This document shows, piece by piece, positions 14,257 to 45,024 of a stretch of DNA of 64,000 bases. The notes under the pieces are model-generated. The model made no database searches, had not been told where the DNA came from, and saw only the letters and a program-made list of their open reading frames with translations. Both the position numbers and the translations under genes were made by a program. This stretch comes from a phage: NCBI GenBank assembly GCA_013585095.1, contig GCA_013585095.1_3039.1; one strand, written 5' to 3'. Every line of letters starts with the position of its first letter. The first letter of the stretch is position 1.

Positions 14257-16953
14257 ATGAAAGAATTTTATATCTCTATTGAAACAGTCGGAAATAACAT
14301 TGTTGAGCGTTATATTGATGAAAATGGAAATGAACGTACTCGTGAAGTAGAATATCTTCCAACTATGTTTAGGCATTGTAAGGAAGAGTCAAAGTACAAA
14401 GACATCTATGGTAAAAACTGCGCTCCTCAAAAATTTCCATCAATGAAAGATGCTCGAGATTGGATGAAACGAATGGAAGACATCGGTCTCGAAGCTCTCG
14501 GTATGAACGATTTTAAACTCGCTTATATCAGTGATACATACGGTTCAGAAATTGTTTATGACCGAAAATTTGTTCGTGTAGCTAACTGTGACATTGAGGT
14601 TACTGGTGATAAATTTCCTGACCCAATGAAATCTGAATATGAAATTGATGCTATCACTCATTACGATTCAATTGATGATCGTTTTTATGTTTTCGACCTT
14701 TTGAATTCAATGTACGGTTCAGTATCAAAATGGGATGCAAAGTTAGCTGCTAAGCTTGACTGTGAAGGTGGTGATGAAGTTCCTCAAGAAATTCTTGACC
14801 GAGTAATTTATATGCCATTCGATAATGAGCGTGATATGCTCATGGAATATATTAATCTTTGGGAACAGAAACGACCTGCTATTTTTACTGGTTGGAATAT
14901 TGAGGGATTTGACGTTCCGTATATCATGAATCGCGTTAAAATGGTTCTCGGTGAACGTAGTATGAAACGCTTCTCTCCAATCGGTCGAGTAAAATCTAAA
15001 CTTATCCAAAATATGTACGGTAGCAAAGAAATTTATTCTATTGATGGCGTATCTATTCTTGATTATTTAGATTTGTATAAGAAATTCGCATTTACTAATT
15101 TGCCGTCATTCTCTTTGGAATCAGTTGCTCAGCATGAAACCAAAAAAGGTAAATTACCATACGACGGTCCTATTAATAAACTTCGTGAGACTAATCATCA
15201 ACGATACATTAGTTATAACATCATTGACGTAGAATCAGTTCAAGCAATTGATAAAATTCGCGGGTTTATCGATCTAGTTTTAAGTATGTCTTATTACGCT
15301 AAAATGCCTTTTTCCGGTGTAATGAGTCCTATTAAAACTTGGGATGCTATTATTTTTAACTCATTGAAAGGTGAACATAAGGTTATTCCTCAACAAGGTT
15401 CGCACGTTAAACAGAGTTTTCCGGGTGCATTTGTGTTTGAACCTAAACCAATTGCTCGTCGATATATTATGAGTTTTGACTTGACGTCTCTGTATCCGAG
15501 CATTATTCGTCAGGTTAACATTAGTCCTGAGACTATTCGTGGGCAGTTTAAAGTTCATCCAATTCATGAATATATCGCAGGAACAGCTCCTAAACCAAGT
15601 GATGAATATTCTTGTTCTCCGAATGGATGGATGTATGATAAGCATCAAGAAGGTATCATTCCAAAGGAAATCGCTAAAGTATTTTTCCAGCGTAAAGATT
15701 GGAAAAAGAAAATGTTCGCTGAAGAAATGAATGCCGAAGCTATTAAAAAGATTATTATGAAAGGCGCAGGGTCTTGTTCAACTAAACCTGAAGTTGAACG
15801 ATATGTTAAGTTCAGTGATGATTTCTTAAATGAATTATCGAATTACACTGAATCTGTTCTTAATAGTCTGATCGAAGAATGTGAAAAAGCGGCTACACTT
15901 GCTAACACAAATCAGCTGAACCGTAAAATTCTTATTAACAGTCTTTATGGTGCTCTTGGTAATATTCATTTCCGTTACTATGATTTGCGAAATGCTACTG
16001 CTATCACAATTTTCGGCCAAGTTGGTATTCAGTGGATTGCTCGTAAAATTAATGAATATCTGAATAAAGTATGCGGAACTAATGGCGAAGATTTCATTGC
16101 AGCAGGTGATACTGATTCGGTATATGTTTGTGTAGATAAAGTTATTGAAAAAGTTGGTCTTGACCGATTCAAAGAGCAGAACGATTTAGTTGAATTCATG
16201 AATCAGTTCGGTAAGAAAAAGATGGAACCTATGATTGATGTTGCATATCGTGAGTTATGTGATTATATGAATAACCGCGAGCATCTGATGCATATGGACC
16301 GTGAAGCTATTTCTTGCCCTCCGCTTGGTTCAAAGGGTGTTGGTGGATTTTGGAAAGCGAAAAAGCGTTATGCTCTGAACGTTTATGATATGGAAGATAA
16401 GCGTTTTGCTGAACCACATCTAAAAATCATGGGTATGGAAACTCAGCAGAGTTCAACGCCTAAAGCGGTTCAAGAAGCTCTCGAAGAAAGTATTCGTCGT
16501 ATTCTTCAGGAAGGTGAAGAGTCTGTCCAAGAATATTACAAGAACTTCGAGAAAGAATATCGTCAACTTGACTATAAAGTTATTGCTGAAGTAAAAACTG
16601 CGAACGATATAGCGAAATATGATGATAAAGGTTGGCCAGGATTTAAATGTCCGTTCCATATTCGTGGTGTGCTAACTTATCGTCGAGCTGTTAGCGGTTT
16701 AGGTGTAGCTCCAATTTTGGATGGAAATAAAGTAATGGTTCTTCCATTGCGTGAAGGAAATCCATTTGGTGACAAATGCATTGCTTGGCCGTCGGGTACA
16801 GAACTTCCAAAAGAAATTCGTTCTGACGTACTGTCTTGGATTGACTACTCAACTTTGTTCCAAAAATCGTTTGTTAAACCGCTTGCGGGCATGTGTGAAT
16901 CGGCTGGTATGGACTATGAAGAAAAAGCTTCGTTAGACTTCCTGTTTGGCTGA
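14257..16953 (+). CDS. 43: DNA polymerase gp43 (family B)
   Basis: 898 aa; exonuclease motifs DIE/YNIIDV, polymerase motifs DLTSLYPS, KILINSLYG, GDTDS. Confidence 0.95.
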   Translation: MKEFYISIETVGNNIVERYIDENGNERTREVEYLPTMFRHCKEESKYKDIYGKNCAPQKFPSMKDARDWMKRMEDIGLEALGMNDFKLAYISDTYGSEIVYDRKFVRVANCDIEVTGDKFPDPMKSEYEIDAITHYDSIDDRFYVFDLLNSMYGSVSKWDAKLAAKLDCEGGDEVPQEILDRVIYMPFDNERDMLMEYINLWEQKRPAIFTGWNIEGFDVPYIMNRVKMVLGERSMKRFSPIGRVKSKLIQNMYGSKEIYSIDGVSILDYLDLYKKFAFTNLPSFSLESVAQHETKKGKLPYDGPINKLRETNHQRYISYNIIDVESVQAIDKIRGFIDLVLSMSYYAKMPFSGVMSPIKTWDAIIFNSLKGEHKVIPQQGSHVKQSFPGAFVFEPKPIARRYIMSFDLTSLYPSIIRQVNISPETIRGQFKVHPIHEYIAGTAPKPSDEYSCSPNGWMYDKHQEGIIPKEIAKVFFQRKDWKKKMFAEEMNAEAIKKIIMKGAGSCSTKPEVERYVKFSDDFLNELSNYTESVLNSLIEECEKAATLANTNQLNRKILINSLYGALGNIHFRYYDLRNATAITIFGQVGIQWIARKINEYLNKVCGTNGEDFIAAGDTDSVYVCVDKVIEKVGLDRFKEQNDLVEFMNQFGKKKMEPMIDVAYRELCDYMNNREHLMHMDREAISCPPLGSKGVGGFWKAKKRYALNVYDMEDKRFAEPHLKIMGMETQQSSTPKAVQEALEESIRRILQEGEESVQEYYKNFEKEYRQLDYKVIAEVKTANDIAKYDDKGWPGFKCPFHIRGVLTYRRAVSGLGVAPILDGNKVMVLPLREGNPFGDKCIAWPSGTELPKEIRSDVLSWIDYSTLFQKSFVKPLAGMCESAGMDYEEKASLDFLFG

Positions 16954-16966
16954 TAGAATAAATCTA

Positions 16967-16987
16967 GGGACCTCCGGGTCCTTTTTT
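16967..16987 (+). terminator. rho-independent terminator
   Basis: GGACC-TCCG-GGTCC then TTTTTT. Confidence 0.8.
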
Positions 16988-17050
16988 CATACAAGTAATA
17001 TAAATCTATACTTATGAAAAACAGATGATTCTGGACATTTAGAATTCCCT

Positions 17051-17133
17051 AAAAAATTTTCACAAAACTGTTTACAAGACTGTTCTTCCATGGTACTATA
17101 CAACTATCAACTAATACGGATTTGGAGAATAAA
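17051..17133 (+). promoter_or_regulatory. early promoter plus conserved leader cassette (copy 1 of 5)
   Basis: AAAATTTTCACAAAACTGTTTACA, 17 bp, TACTAT -10, then leader ACAACTATCAACTA..GGAG..AAAATG; near-identical copies at 36363, 44328, 44840, 48137. Confidence 0.6.
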
Positions 17134-17370
17134 ATGAAAATTGTTATGGGATGCTTAGCAGTTTGTTTAGTTGCATTAGCAGCAGTTCCATTTGTTAGTG
17201 TTGAAAATGATACTCAACCTGTGATTGAATCTAGCACCGTTATTCACACTAATGGTAAAATATCAGTTAAAATTGATGATAATCTTCATGTGAATACAAA
17301 TGGATCTTTAGGTGTGCAAATGGGTAATACCTGCATAAGCACTACTGGAGTAATTACTACTTGCATTTGA
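17134..17370 (+). CDS. small secreted protein (signal peptide)
   Basis: 78 aa from ATG (ORF-track TTG trimmed); N-terminal MKIVMGCLAVCLVALAAVPFVSV hydrophobic signal. Confidence 0.5.
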   Translation: MKIVMGCLAVCLVALAAVPFVSVENDTQPVIESSTVIHTNGKISVKIDDNLHVNTNGSLGVQMGNTCISTTGVITTCI

Positions 17371-17380
17371 GGAAATTATT

Positions 17381-17761
17381 ATGAAAATCGCTATTTTGGT
17401 TATTGCATTAGGTCTTACTGGTTGTGTATCTCAAGGACCGGTAGTAAATCAGTCTGATGTAGGAAAAATTGTAAACTGTTCAAGCAAATTTTATAATCCT
17501 AATGTCAAGTGTTATAAAGAAGCTCCAAAGCAAACAGTCGAACAAATGCAGGCGAATTTTGACGAAGCTATTCGTCCAGATGAATCTGCTCAAGCATATC
17601 GTAATTCTGATGTAATTACACGCGAAGAAAAAATTGAAAACTACTGCGCCGAAATTTGGGCTAATTGGGCTAATAATTACCAATGGCGTACTGGTAAAAA
17701 TGCTCCGATGGAGTATGTAGTGAATTCTTATAATTCATGTGTAAAAAATTTGACTAAGTGA
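17381..17761 (+). CDS. putative lipoprotein
   Basis: 126 aa; N-terminal MKIAILVIALGLTGC lipobox; Cys-containing mature part. Confidence 0.55.
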   Translation: MKIAILVIALGLTGCVSQGPVVNQSDVGKIVNCSSKFYNPNVKCYKEAPKQTVEQMQANFDEAIRPDESAQAYRNSDVITREEKIENYCAEIWANWANNYQWRTGKNAPMEYVVNSYNSCVKNLTK

Positions 17762-17768
17762 GGAAAAC

Positions 17769-18020
17769 ATGGAAACTTTAGTAGCAGGTTCAATTTTTAT
17801 GGTTTTAGTTTCAGGTGTGTTGGCTATTATTATATACATGCTTCCATGGTTTATCGCCTTGATGCGTGGGTCAAAATCGACAGTAGGAATCTTTTTCACA
17901 TCTTTACTGTTTAACTGGTCAATTATTGGTTGGTTTATTACATTTATTTGGTCAATTGCTGGTGAAACTAAAAAGTCTGCACAGCCAAATCAGGTAATTA
18001 TCATCAGAGAGAAAGAATGA
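17769..18020 (+). CDS. imm: immunity to superinfection membrane protein Imm
   Basis: 83 aa, two hydrophobic helices, located between 43 and 42 as in T4. Confidence 0.75.
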   Translation: METLVAGSIFMVLVSGVLAIIIYMLPWFIALMRGSKSTVGIFFTSLLFNWSIIGWFITFIWSIAGETKKSAQPNQVIIIREKE

Positions 18021-18166
18021 AAAGCAAAATTATAACAGTGTTGCTTTTAATCTTGATGGTTATAATAAGTATATACTATAGCGTAACGGTTCCTCTTATG
18101 ATTCCAACTATTATTTTAGGTTGGGGTTTATTACTGTTACAAGTTAAATATGAATGTATCAATTGA
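18017..18166 (+). CDS. hypothetical small membrane protein (49 aa)
   Basis: ATG overlaps imm stop; hydrophobic; read from sequence. Confidence 0.3.
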   Translation: MKSKIITVLLLILMVIISIYYSVTVPLMIPTIILGWGLLLLQVKYECIN

Positions 18167-18173
18167 GGTTTAA

Positions 18174-18914
18174 ATGATTAGTGACTCTATGACAGTTGAA
18201 GAAATCCGTCTTCATTTGGGGCTTGCATTAAAAGAAAAAGATTTCGTAGTTGATAAAACTGGTGTTAAAACTATTGAAATTATTGGCGCATCATTTGTAG
18301 CAGATGAACCGTTTATTTTTGGTGCTCTTAATGATGAATACATTCAGCGCGAACTTGAATGGTATAAATCTAAGAGCTTGTTTGTTAAAGATATTCCAGG
18401 TGAAACACCAAAGATTTGGCAGCAGGTAGCATCTTCTAAAGGCGAAATTAACTCGAATTATGGTTGGGCTATTTGGTCAGAAGATAACTATGCCCAGTAT
18501 GATATGTGTTTAGCTGAACTTGGTCAAAATCCTGATTCTCGGCGTGGTATCATGATTTATACTCGTCCATCCATGCAATTTGACTACAATAAAGATGGTA
18601 TGTCAGATTTCATGTGTACGAATACAGTACAGTATCTGATTCGTGATAAGAAAGTCAATGCAGTAGTAAGCATGCGTTCAAATGACGTGGTCTTCGGATT
18701 CCGTAATGATTATGCATGGCAAAAATACGTATTAGATAAATTAGTATCTGATTTGAATGCCGGCGATTCAACTCGTCAGTATAAAGCAGGTTCTATTATA
18801 TGGAATGTCGGAAGTCTTCATGTATATTCTCGTCATTTTTACTTGGTTGATCATTGGTGGAATACTGGCGAAACTCATATTGTGAAAAAAGACTATAAAG
18901 GTGAGTGGAAATGA
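18174..18914 (+). CDS. 42: dCMP hydroxymethylase gp42
   Basis: 246 aa, thymidylate-synthase-like; T4 synteny. Confidence 0.92.
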   Translation: MISDSMTVEEIRLHLGLALKEKDFVVDKTGVKTIEIIGASFVADEPFIFGALNDEYIQRELEWYKSKSLFVKDIPGETPKIWQQVASSKGEINSNYGWAIWSEDNYAQYDMCLAELGQNPDSRRGIMIYTRPSMQFDYNKDGMSDFMCTNTVQYLIRDKKVNAVVSMRSNDVVFGFRNDYAWQKYVLDKLVSDLNAGDSTRQYKAGSIIWNVGSLHVYSRHFYLVDHWWNTGETHIVKKDYKGEWK

Positions 18915-23346: not shown

Positions 23347-23640
23347 ATGAAAAAATTTATTTTTGCTACAATTTTTACTTTGGCTTCTTGTGCTGCTCAG
23401 CCTGCTATGGCAGGATATGATAAAGATTTGTGTGAATGGTCTATGACTGCAGATCAGACTGAAGTTGAAACTCAAATTGAAGCGGATATTATGAATATCG
23501 TTGAGCGTGATCGTCCTGAAATGAAAGCTGAAGTGCAAAAACAACTTAAGTCTGATGGTGTAATGCAGTATAATTATGTTCTGTATTGCGATAAAAACTT
23601 TAATAACAAAAATATCGTAACCGAAATCACAGGCGAATAA
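23347..23640 (+). CDS. sp: Sp (spackle)-like periplasmic protein
   Basis: 97 aa; 22-residue signal peptide MKKFIFATIFTLASCAAQPAMA; two Cys in mature part; assignment by size, signal peptide and position. Confidence 0.5.
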   Translation: MKKFIFATIFTLASCAAQPAMAGYDKDLCEWSMTADQTEVETQIEADIMNIVERDRPEMKAEVQKQLKSDGVMQYNYVLYCDKNFNNKNIVTEITGE

Positions 23641-44839: not shown

Positions 44840-44910
44840 TTTTAAAAAAGTTGTTTACAAGACTGTTCTTCCGTGGTACTATTACTCTATCAACTACGGA
44901 GGAACAGAAA
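44840..44910 (+). promoter_or_regulatory. promoter-leader cassette copy 4
   Basis: AAAAAAGTTGTTTACAAGACTGTTCTTCCGTGG-TACTAT, leader TACTCTATCAACTACGGAGGAAC..AAAATG. Confidence 0.6.
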
Positions 44911-45024
44911 ATGAAAAAGATTATTAAAGCTATATGGAATGTAGTTATAATATTAATAGTTTTGAGTATATTCCCAATCGTTTTAATGATTGATGTATTA
45001 AACGCTTACTTTGGATTTATGTGA
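44911..45024 (+). CDS. hypothetical small membrane protein (37 aa)
   Basis: ORF-track 44776 trimmed to ATG after GGAGGAACAGAAA; one hydrophobic helix. Confidence 0.4.
   Translation: MKKIIKAIWNVVIILIVLSIFPIVLMIDVLNAYFGFM

What the first reader, a model, noticed from the sequence alone, without database searches (positions are those of the whole stretch)
17134..18166. Cluster of envelope-targeted small proteins flanking imm
Four consecutive small genes encode a 78-aa protein with a cleavable signal peptide, a 126-aa lipoprotein (lipobox LTGC), the 83-aa Imm membrane protein and a 49-aa hydrophobic peptide. Imm mediates superinfection immunity in T4; the adjacent secreted protein and lipoprotein are candidates for additional superinfection-exclusion or receptor-masking functions. 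The first gene is driven by copy 1 of the reiterated promoter-leader cassette.
Basis: inference. Interest (0 to 1): 0.5.

Follow-up and report, generated by a model that had tools for sequence, protein, structure and literature searches.

The report
T-even phage imm early operon
This is the well-known early gene block of T4-like phages that holds the superinfection-exclusion gene imm; the one point worth following up is that the uncharacterised lipoprotein gene beside it (imm.1) stays next to imm in every related phage group examined, so it may be a missing partner in exclusion.

Summary
Four tightly packed same-strand genes lie at 17134-18166, between DNA polymerase (gene 43) and dCMP hydroxymethylase (gene 42) of a Tequatrovirus.

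- **ORF78:** N-terminal signal or anchor plus a small Cys-containing beta domain.
- **ORF126:** this is T4 imm.1 (DUF5481, phrog_1754), with lipobox LTGC.
- **ORF83:** this is Imm, 82 of 83 residues identical to T4 Imm.
- **ORF49:** this is the ORF named 42.1 in the T4T record, a two-segment hydrophobic peptide that starts inside the imm stop codon.

The "promoter-leader cassette" is a known T4-type early promoter/stem-loop element (PeSL).

Imm.1-family lipoproteins sit directly beside imm in all 24 T4-like loci sampled, in three gene orders. In Mosigvirus the pair has moved next to spackle. That supports a functional link with Imm, but receptor masking is unlikely.

ORF78 is not part of the module. 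It is swappable cargo of the promoter-proximal slot, which is empty in T4 and holds an unrelated gene in T2. 42.1 is conserved but is not always linked to imm.

All four genes are 96-100% identical to genes in hundreds of deposited genomes. The locus is ordinary and already known; only the function of Imm.1 is open.

The parts
16966..16983 (+). Stem-loop terminator after gene 43. It forms the 5' part of the PeSL element.
   Evidence: Terminator scan found 7 pairs (4 G-C) followed by a T run. The element is conserved in T4.
17071..17099 (+). T4-type early promoter: -35 TTTACA, 17-nt spacer, TGG, -10 TACTAT.
   Evidence: The motif has 9 copies, all on the + strand, against 0.23 expected. It matches the PeSL consensus TTTACW-N17-TAYWAT (PMC4122927).
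17134..17370 (+). ORF78: a small exported or membrane-anchored protein with a hydrophobic N-terminus and a beta-rich domain carrying conserved Cys67 and Cys77. It is the variable cargo of the promoter-proximal slot.
   Evidence: Matches phrog_4189 (E 4e-30) with no Pfam hit. Found only in Tequatrovirus, in 326 records, and in 14 clusters of a 5.8-billion-protein database. Absent from T4 through a clean 247-bp indel flanked by ATGAAAAT. dN/dS is 0.28.
17381..17761 (+). imm.1: a lipoprotein (lipobox LTGC, lipidated Cys15, Val at +2) with a C-terminal helical hairpin carrying invariant Cys89 and Cys120.
   Evidence: Matches PF17578 DUF5481 (237.6 bits) and phrog_1754. It is 98% identical to T4 Imm.1. 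AlphaFold2 gave pLDDT about 75 only for residues 81-125. The T4 orthologue is early at both RNA and protein level (PMC9697503 supplement).
17769..18020 (+). imm: the inner-membrane superinfection-exclusion protein.
   Evidence: Matches PF14373 (58.2 bits) and is 82 of 83 residues identical to T4 Imm. R33 and W50 are invariant across six genera, and mutating them weakens exclusion (bioRxiv 10.64898/2026.03.06.709160).
18017..18166 (+). 42.1: a 49-aa peptide with two hydrophobic segments. Its start codon overlaps the imm stop codon (ATGA).
   Evidence: Matches phrog_3610 (E 4.8e-26). Named 42.1 in the T4T record HM137666 but not annotated in T4 RefSeq. Homologues occur in the SP18, Dhakavirus-like and Mosigvirus loci, with the conserved motif MIPTxxxGW...YECxN. 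dN/dS against SP18 is 0.25.
18174..18914 (+). Gene 42 (dCMP hydroxymethylase), the next gene of the same transcription unit.
   Evidence: It starts 7 nt after 42.1, and no terminator was found between them.
23347..23640 (+). sp (spackle), the other known T-even exclusion gene, 5.2 kb downstream. Listed for context only.
   Evidence: tblastn with RB69 Sp gave 67% identity; translation.

Best explanation
The segment is the T-even early 'imm' transcription unit. The order is: terminator/early-promoter element (PeSL), a variable first slot (here ORF78), imm.1, imm, 42.1, then gene 42.

**Imm.** It is the inner-membrane protein that stops DNA entry from a second phage. According to a 2026 preprint it does so by binding the tape-measure protein gp29.

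**Imm.1.** It is a small lipoprotein predicted to go to the inner leaflet of the outer membrane, because no family member has Asp at position +2. It has a disulfide-stapled helical hairpin facing the periplasm. Because it is inherited and rearranged together with imm throughout the Tevenvirinae, I infer that it works in the same process. That process would be protecting the already infected envelope against secondarily adsorbing T-even phages, acting on the periplasmic side, not by masking a receptor.

**42.1.** It is a conserved inner-membrane hairpin peptide translationally coupled to imm, an accessory that is not an obligate partner.

**ORF78.** It is exchangeable PeSL cargo that is exported to the envelope. 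Its role is unknown and it is not part of the conserved module.

**Shown:** gene structures, targeting signals, homology, purifying selection and synteny. **From the literature:** the Imm mechanism, early expression of Imm.1, and PeSL behaviour. **Inferred:** the outer-membrane location of Imm.1 and its shared function with Imm.
For: **Identity and layout:**

**Imm.1 family next to imm.** The neighbouring lipoproteins in seven phage groups are Tequatrovirus, Mosigvirus, Gelderlandvirus (S16), Gaprivervirus (SP18), Dhakavirus (IME08), Klebsiella T4-like phages and Citrobacter phage Moon (contig of L030). For the first six, representatives scored on their own hit phrog_1754 (E from 2e-15 to 5e-52); the Moon-like lipoprotein was placed in the family by the local profile (5e-24) and by tblastn.

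**Sampled loci.** In 80 IMG/VR loci recovered with an Imm profile, 24 of 24 from T4-like contigs have an Imm.1-family ORF directly adjacent on the same strand. None of the 56 other loci does.

**Gene orders.** Three orders occur: imm.1>imm, imm>42.1>imm.1, and imm>imm.1.

**Relocation as a pair.** In RB69 and other Mosigvirus loci the pair lies between 61.4 and sp, while the 42.1-like ORF stays near gene 43.

**Matching counts in GenBank phages.** There are 502 imm and 502 imm.1 records at 90% identity or more. There are 156 imm records at 60-80% identity and 155 imm.1 records below 60%; the listed examples of both are RB69-type (Mosigvirus) phages.

**Family size and features.** The family has only 28 clusters among 1.84 billion representatives. 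Of the 20 additional representatives I read, 19 have a lipobox and none has Asp at +2.

**Residues and expression.** Cys89 and Cys120 are invariant in the alignment across six phage groups; Cys120 stays invariant in the larger alignments, where Cys89 is missing in a few rows. T4 Imm.1 is early at RNA and protein level.

**ORF78 slot variability:**. **PeSL:**
Against: - No experiment links Imm.1 to exclusion. From my own recollection of Lu and Henning 1989, plasmid-borne imm alone excludes T4. The 2026 preprint likewise obtained exclusion from imm alone, so Imm.1 is not required for the basic effect.
- Synteny in T4-like genomes is generally conservative, so part of the adjacency could be inherited, not selected.
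- The structure model of Imm.1 is poor (mean pLDDT 50). It matched nothing in the PDB, so there is no mechanistic clue.
- Outer-membrane sorting rests only on the E. coli +2 rule.
- The targeting of ORF78 and 42.1 is predicted from hydropathy alone.
Confidence: 0.6

Rival explanations
1. Linkage without shared function. Imm.1, 42.1 and ORF78 would be independent early envelope proteins, for example modulators of host outer-membrane or periplasmic functions, of lysis timing, or of host defences. They would sit by imm only because of shared early timing and common ancestry.
For: imm alone is sufficient for exclusion when cloned. 42.1 and imm are separated in Mosigvirus. The first slot accepts unrelated genes. 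No homology ties Imm.1 to any exclusion protein.
Against: imm.1 and imm remain adjacent after at least two independent rearrangements: an order inversion and a translocation as a pair to a site beside sp. Their occurrence is one-to-one in every T4-like locus examined.
Confidence: 0.3
2. The lipoprotein and/or the secreted 78-aa protein would mask or inactivate the outer-membrane receptor, as T5 Llp or lambdoid Cor do with FhuA.
For: Imm.1 is a small phage-encoded early lipoprotein, as Llp and Cor are. It gives a weak PHROG match to Cor (E 0.15), limited to residues 1-60, which include the signal peptide.
Against: Imm.1 is at least 95% identical in about 500 Tequatrovirus records and nearly identical in T4 and T2. 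Those phages use different receptors, which I state from my own knowledge. T-even exclusion leaves adsorption intact, and secondary adsorption is the signal for lysis inhibition (PMC6832632). ORF78 is missing from T4 and T2.
Confidence: 0.07
3. The 78-aa and 49-aa ORFs would be chance reading frames, not genes.
For: 42.1 is not annotated in T4 RefSeq or in many other genomes. Both ORFs are very short.
Against: dN/dS is 0.25-0.28. 42.1 is conserved across genera, with local profile E-values from 1e-16 to 2e-30 and a start that overlaps the imm stop in three genera. Both match PHROG families. ORF78 has a Shine-Dalgarno sequence at the proper spacing; 42.1 has only a purine-rich run upstream.
Confidence: 0.03

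Closest known systems
Phage T4 43-42 interval: imm.1 (T4p046, UniProt P18057), imm (T4p045) and the ORF named 42.1 in T4T (HM137666)
   Same: Same order, strand, promoter and terminator. Imm.1 is 98% identical, Imm is 82 of 83 residues identical, and 42.1 is 45 of 49 residues identical.
   Different: T4 lacks ORF78 through a 247-bp indel between two ATGAAAAT repeats. A 1-nt indel at the end of imm.1 closes the 94-codon extended imm frame that is open in T4.
T5 Llp and lambdoid Cor receptor-blocking lipoproteins
   Same: They are small phage-encoded lipoproteins made to exclude further infection.
   Different: There is no sequence relationship beyond the signal peptide region. They block the FhuA receptor, whereas Imm.1 does not vary with receptor type and T-even exclusion does not block adsorption.
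T4 Spackle (gp61.3)
   Same: It is an early, exported, small disulfide-containing protein involved in exclusion. In Mosigvirus it is encoded immediately after imm.1-imm.
   Different: Only the signal peptides align (hhalign, 18 columns). Sp is a soluble periplasmic inhibitor of gp5 lysozyme (PMC7677548), not a lipoprotein.
[quoted passage not shown]
   Same: They are mechanistic analogues of Imm: inner-membrane proteins that bind the incoming pore-forming or tape-measure protein (preprint).
   Different: They are single-protein systems. No lipoprotein partner was mentioned in the sources I read.
PeSL elements (promoter-early stem-loop; Arbiol 2010, Comeau 2014)
   Same: The region 16966-17136 has every described part: a stem-loop, an AT-rich stretch, TTTACW-N17-TAYWAT, a Shine-Dalgarno sequence and a start codon. 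It also adjoins an indel/replacement site.
   Different: None of note. Only one flanking PeSL is present at this slot. The T4 deletion end-points are an 8-bp ATGAAAAT repeat, not a second PeSL.

Membership tests
Imm (Pfam PF14373 Imm_superinfect; T4 Imm orthologue) | Profile match above the curated cut-off and near-identity to T4 Imm | tested here: met
   58.2 bits against a cut-off of 27.9. 82 of 83 residues are identical to T4 Imm.
Imm (Pfam PF14373 Imm_superinfect; T4 Imm orthologue) | Residues R33 and W50, which are needed for full exclusion | tested here: met
   Both are present and invariant in six genera. Their functional role comes from the preprint.
Imm (Pfam PF14373 Imm_superinfect; T4 Imm orthologue) | Blocks DNA entry of superinfecting T-even phage | not testable with these tools
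   Requires plating or DNA-ejection assays.
Imm.1 family (Pfam DUF5481 / phrog_1754) | Profile match | tested here: met
   DUF5481 at 237.6 bits (cut-off 27) and phrog_1754 at E 4e-44.
Bacterial lipoprotein (signal peptidase II substrate) | Positively charged n-region, hydrophobic h-region and lipobox [LVI][ASTVI][GAS]C within the first 40 residues | tested here: met
   MKIAILVIALG-LTGC, with Cys at residue 15. Lipobox positions L12, G14 and C15 are invariant in the alignment across six phage groups, and 19 of the 20 additional family representatives read have a lipobox.
Bacterial lipoprotein (signal peptidase II substrate) | Actual lipidation, and outer- versus inner-membrane sorting | not testable with these tools
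   Only the +2 rule could be applied. Position +2 is Val here and is never Asp in the family.
Receptor-blocking exclusion lipoproteins (T5 Llp, Cor) | Homology to Llp or Cor | tested here: not met
   The best Cor match is E 0.15, limited to residues 1-60, which include the signal peptide. There is no Pfam, NCBIfam or PADLOC hit.
Receptor-blocking exclusion lipoproteins (T5 Llp, Cor) | Sequence varies with the receptor used by the phage | tested here: not met
   At least 95% identity in 499 of 502 Tequatrovirus records. T4 is 98% identical and T2 matches at 123 of 127 aligned positions, counting the stop.
Sec-type cleavable signal peptide (ORF78) | n-h-c organisation with small residues at positions -3 and -1 | tested here: inconclusive
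   Lys2, a hydrophobic stretch over residues 3-23, and ALA|A after residue 16. The h-region tolerates 7-aa duplications. No trained predictor was available, so a signal-anchor remains possible.
PeSL element | Stem-loop, AT-rich tract, TTTACW-N17-TAYWAT, Shine-Dalgarno sequence and ATG, located beside a variable ORF | tested here: met
   The definition is taken from PMC4122927.

The most novel reading that the evidence does not exclude
Imm.1 would be the outer-membrane arm of a two- or three-part, envelope-spanning exclusion device conserved across the Tevenvirinae. The lipoprotein would reach from the outer membrane into the periplasm. There it would either capture the incoming tail-tip or tape-measure complex, or position Imm (with 42.1) at the site of injection. 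On this reading, cloned Imm alone gives only part of the exclusion seen during infection.
Probability: 0.2. Interest if true: 0.6.

Novelty: already known. Interest (0 to 1): 0.3.

Why it matters
The locus is textbook T-even biology, and the genes are already present in hundreds of deposited genomes. The useful outcome is a sharper and cheaper experiment. How Imm works has only just been addressed, by a 2026 preprint that shows it binding the tape-measure protein. That preprint does not mention Imm.1, and I found no paper on its function. Imm.1 is nevertheless an early-expressed lipoprotein that co-occurs with and stays next to imm in every T4-like lineage examined. Testing imm.1 would show whether T-even exclusion has an unrecognised outer-membrane or periplasmic component. 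ORF78 can be given low priority as variable cargo.

Tried and rejected
- **Structure of Imm.1.** The model had mean pLDDT 50.4, and only the C-terminal hairpin was usable. Foldseek against the PDB gave nothing below E = 1. A profile search of PDB sequences gave nothing.
- **Structure of ORF78.** Mean pLDDT was 52.7, so I ran no fold search on it.
- **Other libraries.** NCBIfam and PADLOC gave no meaningful hit for any of the four proteins. Rfam found nothing credible in 16800-18300.
- **Locus search with the Imm.1 alignment.** The search for related loci failed because no stretch was conserved enough. I used the Imm alignment instead.
- **Literature.** Searches for imm.1 and DUF5481 returned only noise or nothing. 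The T4 genome review PMC150520 is not held.
- **Homology of Imm.1 to Spackle.** Rejected, because only the signal peptides align.
- **Generality of the pairing.** I rejected the idea that Imm homologues in general pair with lipoproteins; only 2 of 56 non-T4-like loci do.
- **Source of the T2 slot gene.** I rejected the idea that it came from elsewhere in this window, since it has no match here.
- **Terminator-like hit at 17170-17183.** It lies inside ORF78 and I treated it as chance.

Full report
**What is there**

The window is a Tequatrovirus genome segment. The 1.24-kb query 16940-18180 matches 516 phage records, and the best is Shigella phage CM8 at 99.2%.

The finding lies between gene 43 (DNA polymerase, 14257-16953) and gene 42 (dCMP hydroxymethylase, 18174-18914). 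Four + strand ORFs occupy exactly the stated coordinates:

| ORF | Coordinates | Length |
|---|---|---|
| ORF78 | 17134-17370 | 78 aa |
| ORF126 | 17381-17761 | 126 aa |
| ORF83 | 17769-18020 | 83 aa |
| ORF49 | 18017-18166 | 49 aa |

The gaps between them are 10, 7 and -4 nt, and gene 42 follows after 7 nt. GGAG or GAGGA ribosome-binding sites precede the first three ORFs and gene 42. The fourth ORF starts inside the imm stop codon (ATGA).

Upstream lie the gene 43 terminator stem-loop (16966-16983) and a promoter, TTTACA-N17-(TGG)TACTAT, at 17071-17099. I found no terminator between the four genes and gene 42, so this reads as a single early transcription unit.

**Identity of each gene**

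- **ORF83 is Imm.** It hits Pfam Imm_superinfect at 58.2 bits (cut-off 27.9) and phrog_1039 'immunity to superinfection'. It is 82 of 83 residues identical to T4 Imm.
- **ORF126 is T4 imm.1.** It hits Pfam DUF5481 at 237.6 bits and phrog_1754, and it is 98% identical to the T4 protein. It has a canonical lipobox (LTGC, Cys15) behind a Lys-containing n-region and a hydrophobic h-region.
- **ORF49 is 42.1.** It matches phrog_3610. The same ORF is open in T4 but not annotated in T4 RefSeq. The T4T record calls it 42.1.
- **ORF78 has no Pfam family.** It matches phrog_4189. It has a hydrophobic N-terminus (residues 1-26) with an ALA|A site. The rest is Thr/Asn/Gly/Val-rich, is predicted to be all-beta at low confidence, and carries conserved Cys67 and Cys77.

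All four are under purifying selection, with dN/dS between 0.06 and 0.28.

**The 'promoter-leader cassette'**

The intergenic sequence from about 17050 to the start codon recurs at about 2743, 36361, 44327, 44835 and 48139. The core motif TACA-N14-TGGTAYTAT occurs 9 times, always on the + strand, against 0.23 expected.

This is the T4 early promoter in its composite form: a stem-loop, an AT-rich tract, the promoter, a Shine-Dalgarno sequence and ATG. Comeau, Arbiol and Krisch named this element PeSL and gave the T4/PST consensus as TTTACW-N17-TAYWAT. They showed that it lies next to gene insertions, deletions and replacements (PMC4122927).

That is what happens here. T4 has no gene between the leader and imm.1, because of a clean 247-bp difference whose ends are the repeat ATGAAAAT. 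This window has ORF78 in that position. T2 has an unrelated 83-aa protein without a signal sequence.

In GenBank phages, ORF78 occurs in 326 records, nearly all named as hosted on Escherichia, Shigella, Yersinia or related enterobacteria; every record I opened or saw listed was a Tequatrovirus. The T2-type gene occurs in 31 closely matching records, in the examples I checked at this same slot. About 500 Tequatrovirus records carry imm.1. ORF78 is therefore exchangeable cargo of the promoter-proximal slot, not a fixed neighbour of imm.

**The conserved part: imm.1 with imm**

A lipoprotein gene lies beside imm in every T4-like group I examined:

| Phage group | Local gene order |
|---|---|
| RB69 (Mosigvirus) | 61.4 - imm.1 - imm - sp |
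| S16 (Gelderlandvirus) | 43 - lipoprotein - imm - 42 |
| Klebsiella T4-like phages | 43 - lipoprotein - imm - 42 |
| SP18 (Gaprivervirus) | 43 - imm - 42.1-like - lipoprotein |
| IME08 (Dhakavirus) | 43 - imm - lipoprotein |

Despite only 20-36% identity to the window protein, all these lipoproteins belong to phrog_1754 (E from 2e-15 to 5e-52). Across these six phage groups they share the lipobox, a Gly-rich motif just after the lipidated Cys, and two invariant cysteines, Cys89 and Cys120. In the larger alignments only Cys120 stays invariant, because a few rows lack Cys89.

I then collected 80 IMG/VR loci with an Imm profile and scanned them with local profiles. All 24 loci from T4-like contigs have an Imm.1-family ORF directly adjacent on the same strand. 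One of these contigs has the length of Citrobacter phage Moon. None of the 56 loci from other, smaller phage contigs has one. Only 2 of those 56 have any lipobox ORF next to the imm homologue.

Record counts in GenBank phages match one-to-one:

| Gene | Records at 90% identity or more (Tequatrovirus-type) | Next identity class (listed examples are RB69-type) |
|---|---|---|
| imm | 502 | 156 at 60-80% |
| imm.1 | 502 | 155 below 60% |

For Klebsiella phages, the coordinates of the two genes are contiguous in the records I compared.

The family is tiny: 25 clusters in a 5.8-billion-protein database and 28 among 1.84 billion representatives. Of the 20 additional representatives I read, 19 have a lipobox and none has Asp at +2.

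The pair has therefore stayed together through an inversion of order and a translocation. In Mosigvirus it landed immediately upstream of sp, the other known exclusion gene, while the 42.1-like ORF stayed behind near gene 43.

**What is known and what I infer**

From the literature:

- Imm and Sp are the two T4 exclusion functions, and exclusion does not prevent secondary adsorption (PMC6832632; PMC7677548).
- A 2026 preprint reports that Imm binds the helical-bundle domain of the tape-measure protein gp29. Imm R33A and W50A weaken exclusion, and plasmid-borne imm alone excludes T4. Both residues are invariant in my six-genus alignment.
- That preprint does not mention imm.1, 42.1 or any lipoprotein.
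- A T4 multi-omics study lists imm.1 as early at both RNA and protein level, in the same class as sp (PMC9697503 supplement).

My inference is as follows. Imm.1 is exported, lipidated and, by the +2 rule, sent to the outer membrane. There its disulfide-stapled helical hairpin (residues 81-125, pLDDT about 75) faces the periplasm. It would act in the same process as Imm, defending the infected envelope against secondarily adsorbing phages.

Receptor masking is unlikely. Imm.1 is almost invariant among Tequatroviruses, including T4 and T2, which use different receptors (my own knowledge). Adsorption is also not blocked in T-even exclusion.

42.1 is a conserved two-segment hydrophobic peptide. 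Its start overlaps the imm stop in the Tequatrovirus, SP18-type and Dhakavirus-like loci. It is separate from imm in Mosigvirus and was not found near imm in the S16-like, Klebsiella-phage and Moon-like loci, so it is at most an accessory.

**Limits**

- No function can be read from the structure. The models are poor, and nothing matches in the PDB, NCBIfam or PADLOC.
- Cleavage of the ORF78 signal and the membrane location of Imm.1 are predictions only.
- imm alone suffices for exclusion from a plasmid, so any contribution of Imm.1 must be additive, conditional, or directed at another consequence of secondary adsorption.

**Verdict**

The locus is the already known T-even imm region and is ordinary as a sequence feature. 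The one lead of value is the strict, rearrangement-resistant pairing of the uncharacterised lipoprotein Imm.1 with Imm. I did not find this discussed in the searchable literature, and it is easy to test.

Noticed in passing
L001 3137-3514 (T4 NC_000866 26636-27013): T4 RefSeq labels imm.1 as 'iduronate sulfatase', and several other phage records copy this name. Nothing supports it: the protein is a 125-aa lipoprotein whose only significant Pfam match is DUF5481.
   Followed up: partly
window 18017-18166; L001 2728-2877; L011 about 1950-2093: The conserved 49-aa ORF 42.1 is not annotated in T4 RefSeq, Kha5h, CM8, JS09 and others. In Kha5h a 'cos sites' misc_feature is placed inside it, which makes no sense for a T4-like phage.
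   Followed up: partly
window 17740-17771: A 1-nt difference from T4 (TTGACTAAG here, TTGACCTAAG in T4) puts an in-frame TGA at 17751-17753. This supports the 83-aa form as the conserved product. The same indel adds a C-terminal Lys to Imm.1.
   Followed up: yes
window 17068-17099 and 44851-44882; 44911-45024: Two early-promoter copies share a nearly identical spacer as well as the consensus (31 nt, 97% identical). The second one drives a 37-aa very hydrophobic peptide, MKKIIKAIWNVVIILIVLSIFPIVLMIDVLNAYFGFM.
   Followed up: no
window 17152-17190 (ORF78 residues 7-19): The hydrophobic N-terminus of ORF78 is polymorphic for 7-aa (21-bp) tandem duplications in other phages (P0030, P0036, P0037, ELT1). 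One variant, P0036, thereby gains an LAAC lipobox and is labelled 'Lipoprotein' by UniRef.
   Followed up: partly
L005 1209-2046 (Shigella phage CT01): The slot is rearranged in CT01. A duplicated leader plus the 5' part of imm.1 is followed by an internal fragment of ORF78 fused in frame to a second leader and a full imm.1. This looks like a recombination scar at the repeated leader.
   Followed up: no
L092 347-598 (phage T2 PV648363 89946-90197): T2, RB27, RB51, RB68 and about 25 other Tequatroviruses carry an unrelated 83-aa gene with no signal peptide in the slot where this window has ORF78. Its leader resembles the one at window 44835. A 54%-identical homologue sits elsewhere in Dhakavirus genomes.
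   Followed up: partly
window 23347-23640: This is the spackle gene (67% identical to RB69 Sp). Its signal peptide contains LASC, a lipobox-like motif upstream of the AMA|G site. Profile comparison aligns it with the Imm.1 signal peptide only.
   Followed up: no
L041 2542-2937 and L062 3299-3721: Among 56 non-T4-like phage loci with an Imm_superinfect homologue, only three lipobox ORFs were found in 316 kb. Two of them lie immediately next to the imm homologue on the same strand, which may be an independent recurrence of the pairing.
   Followed up: no
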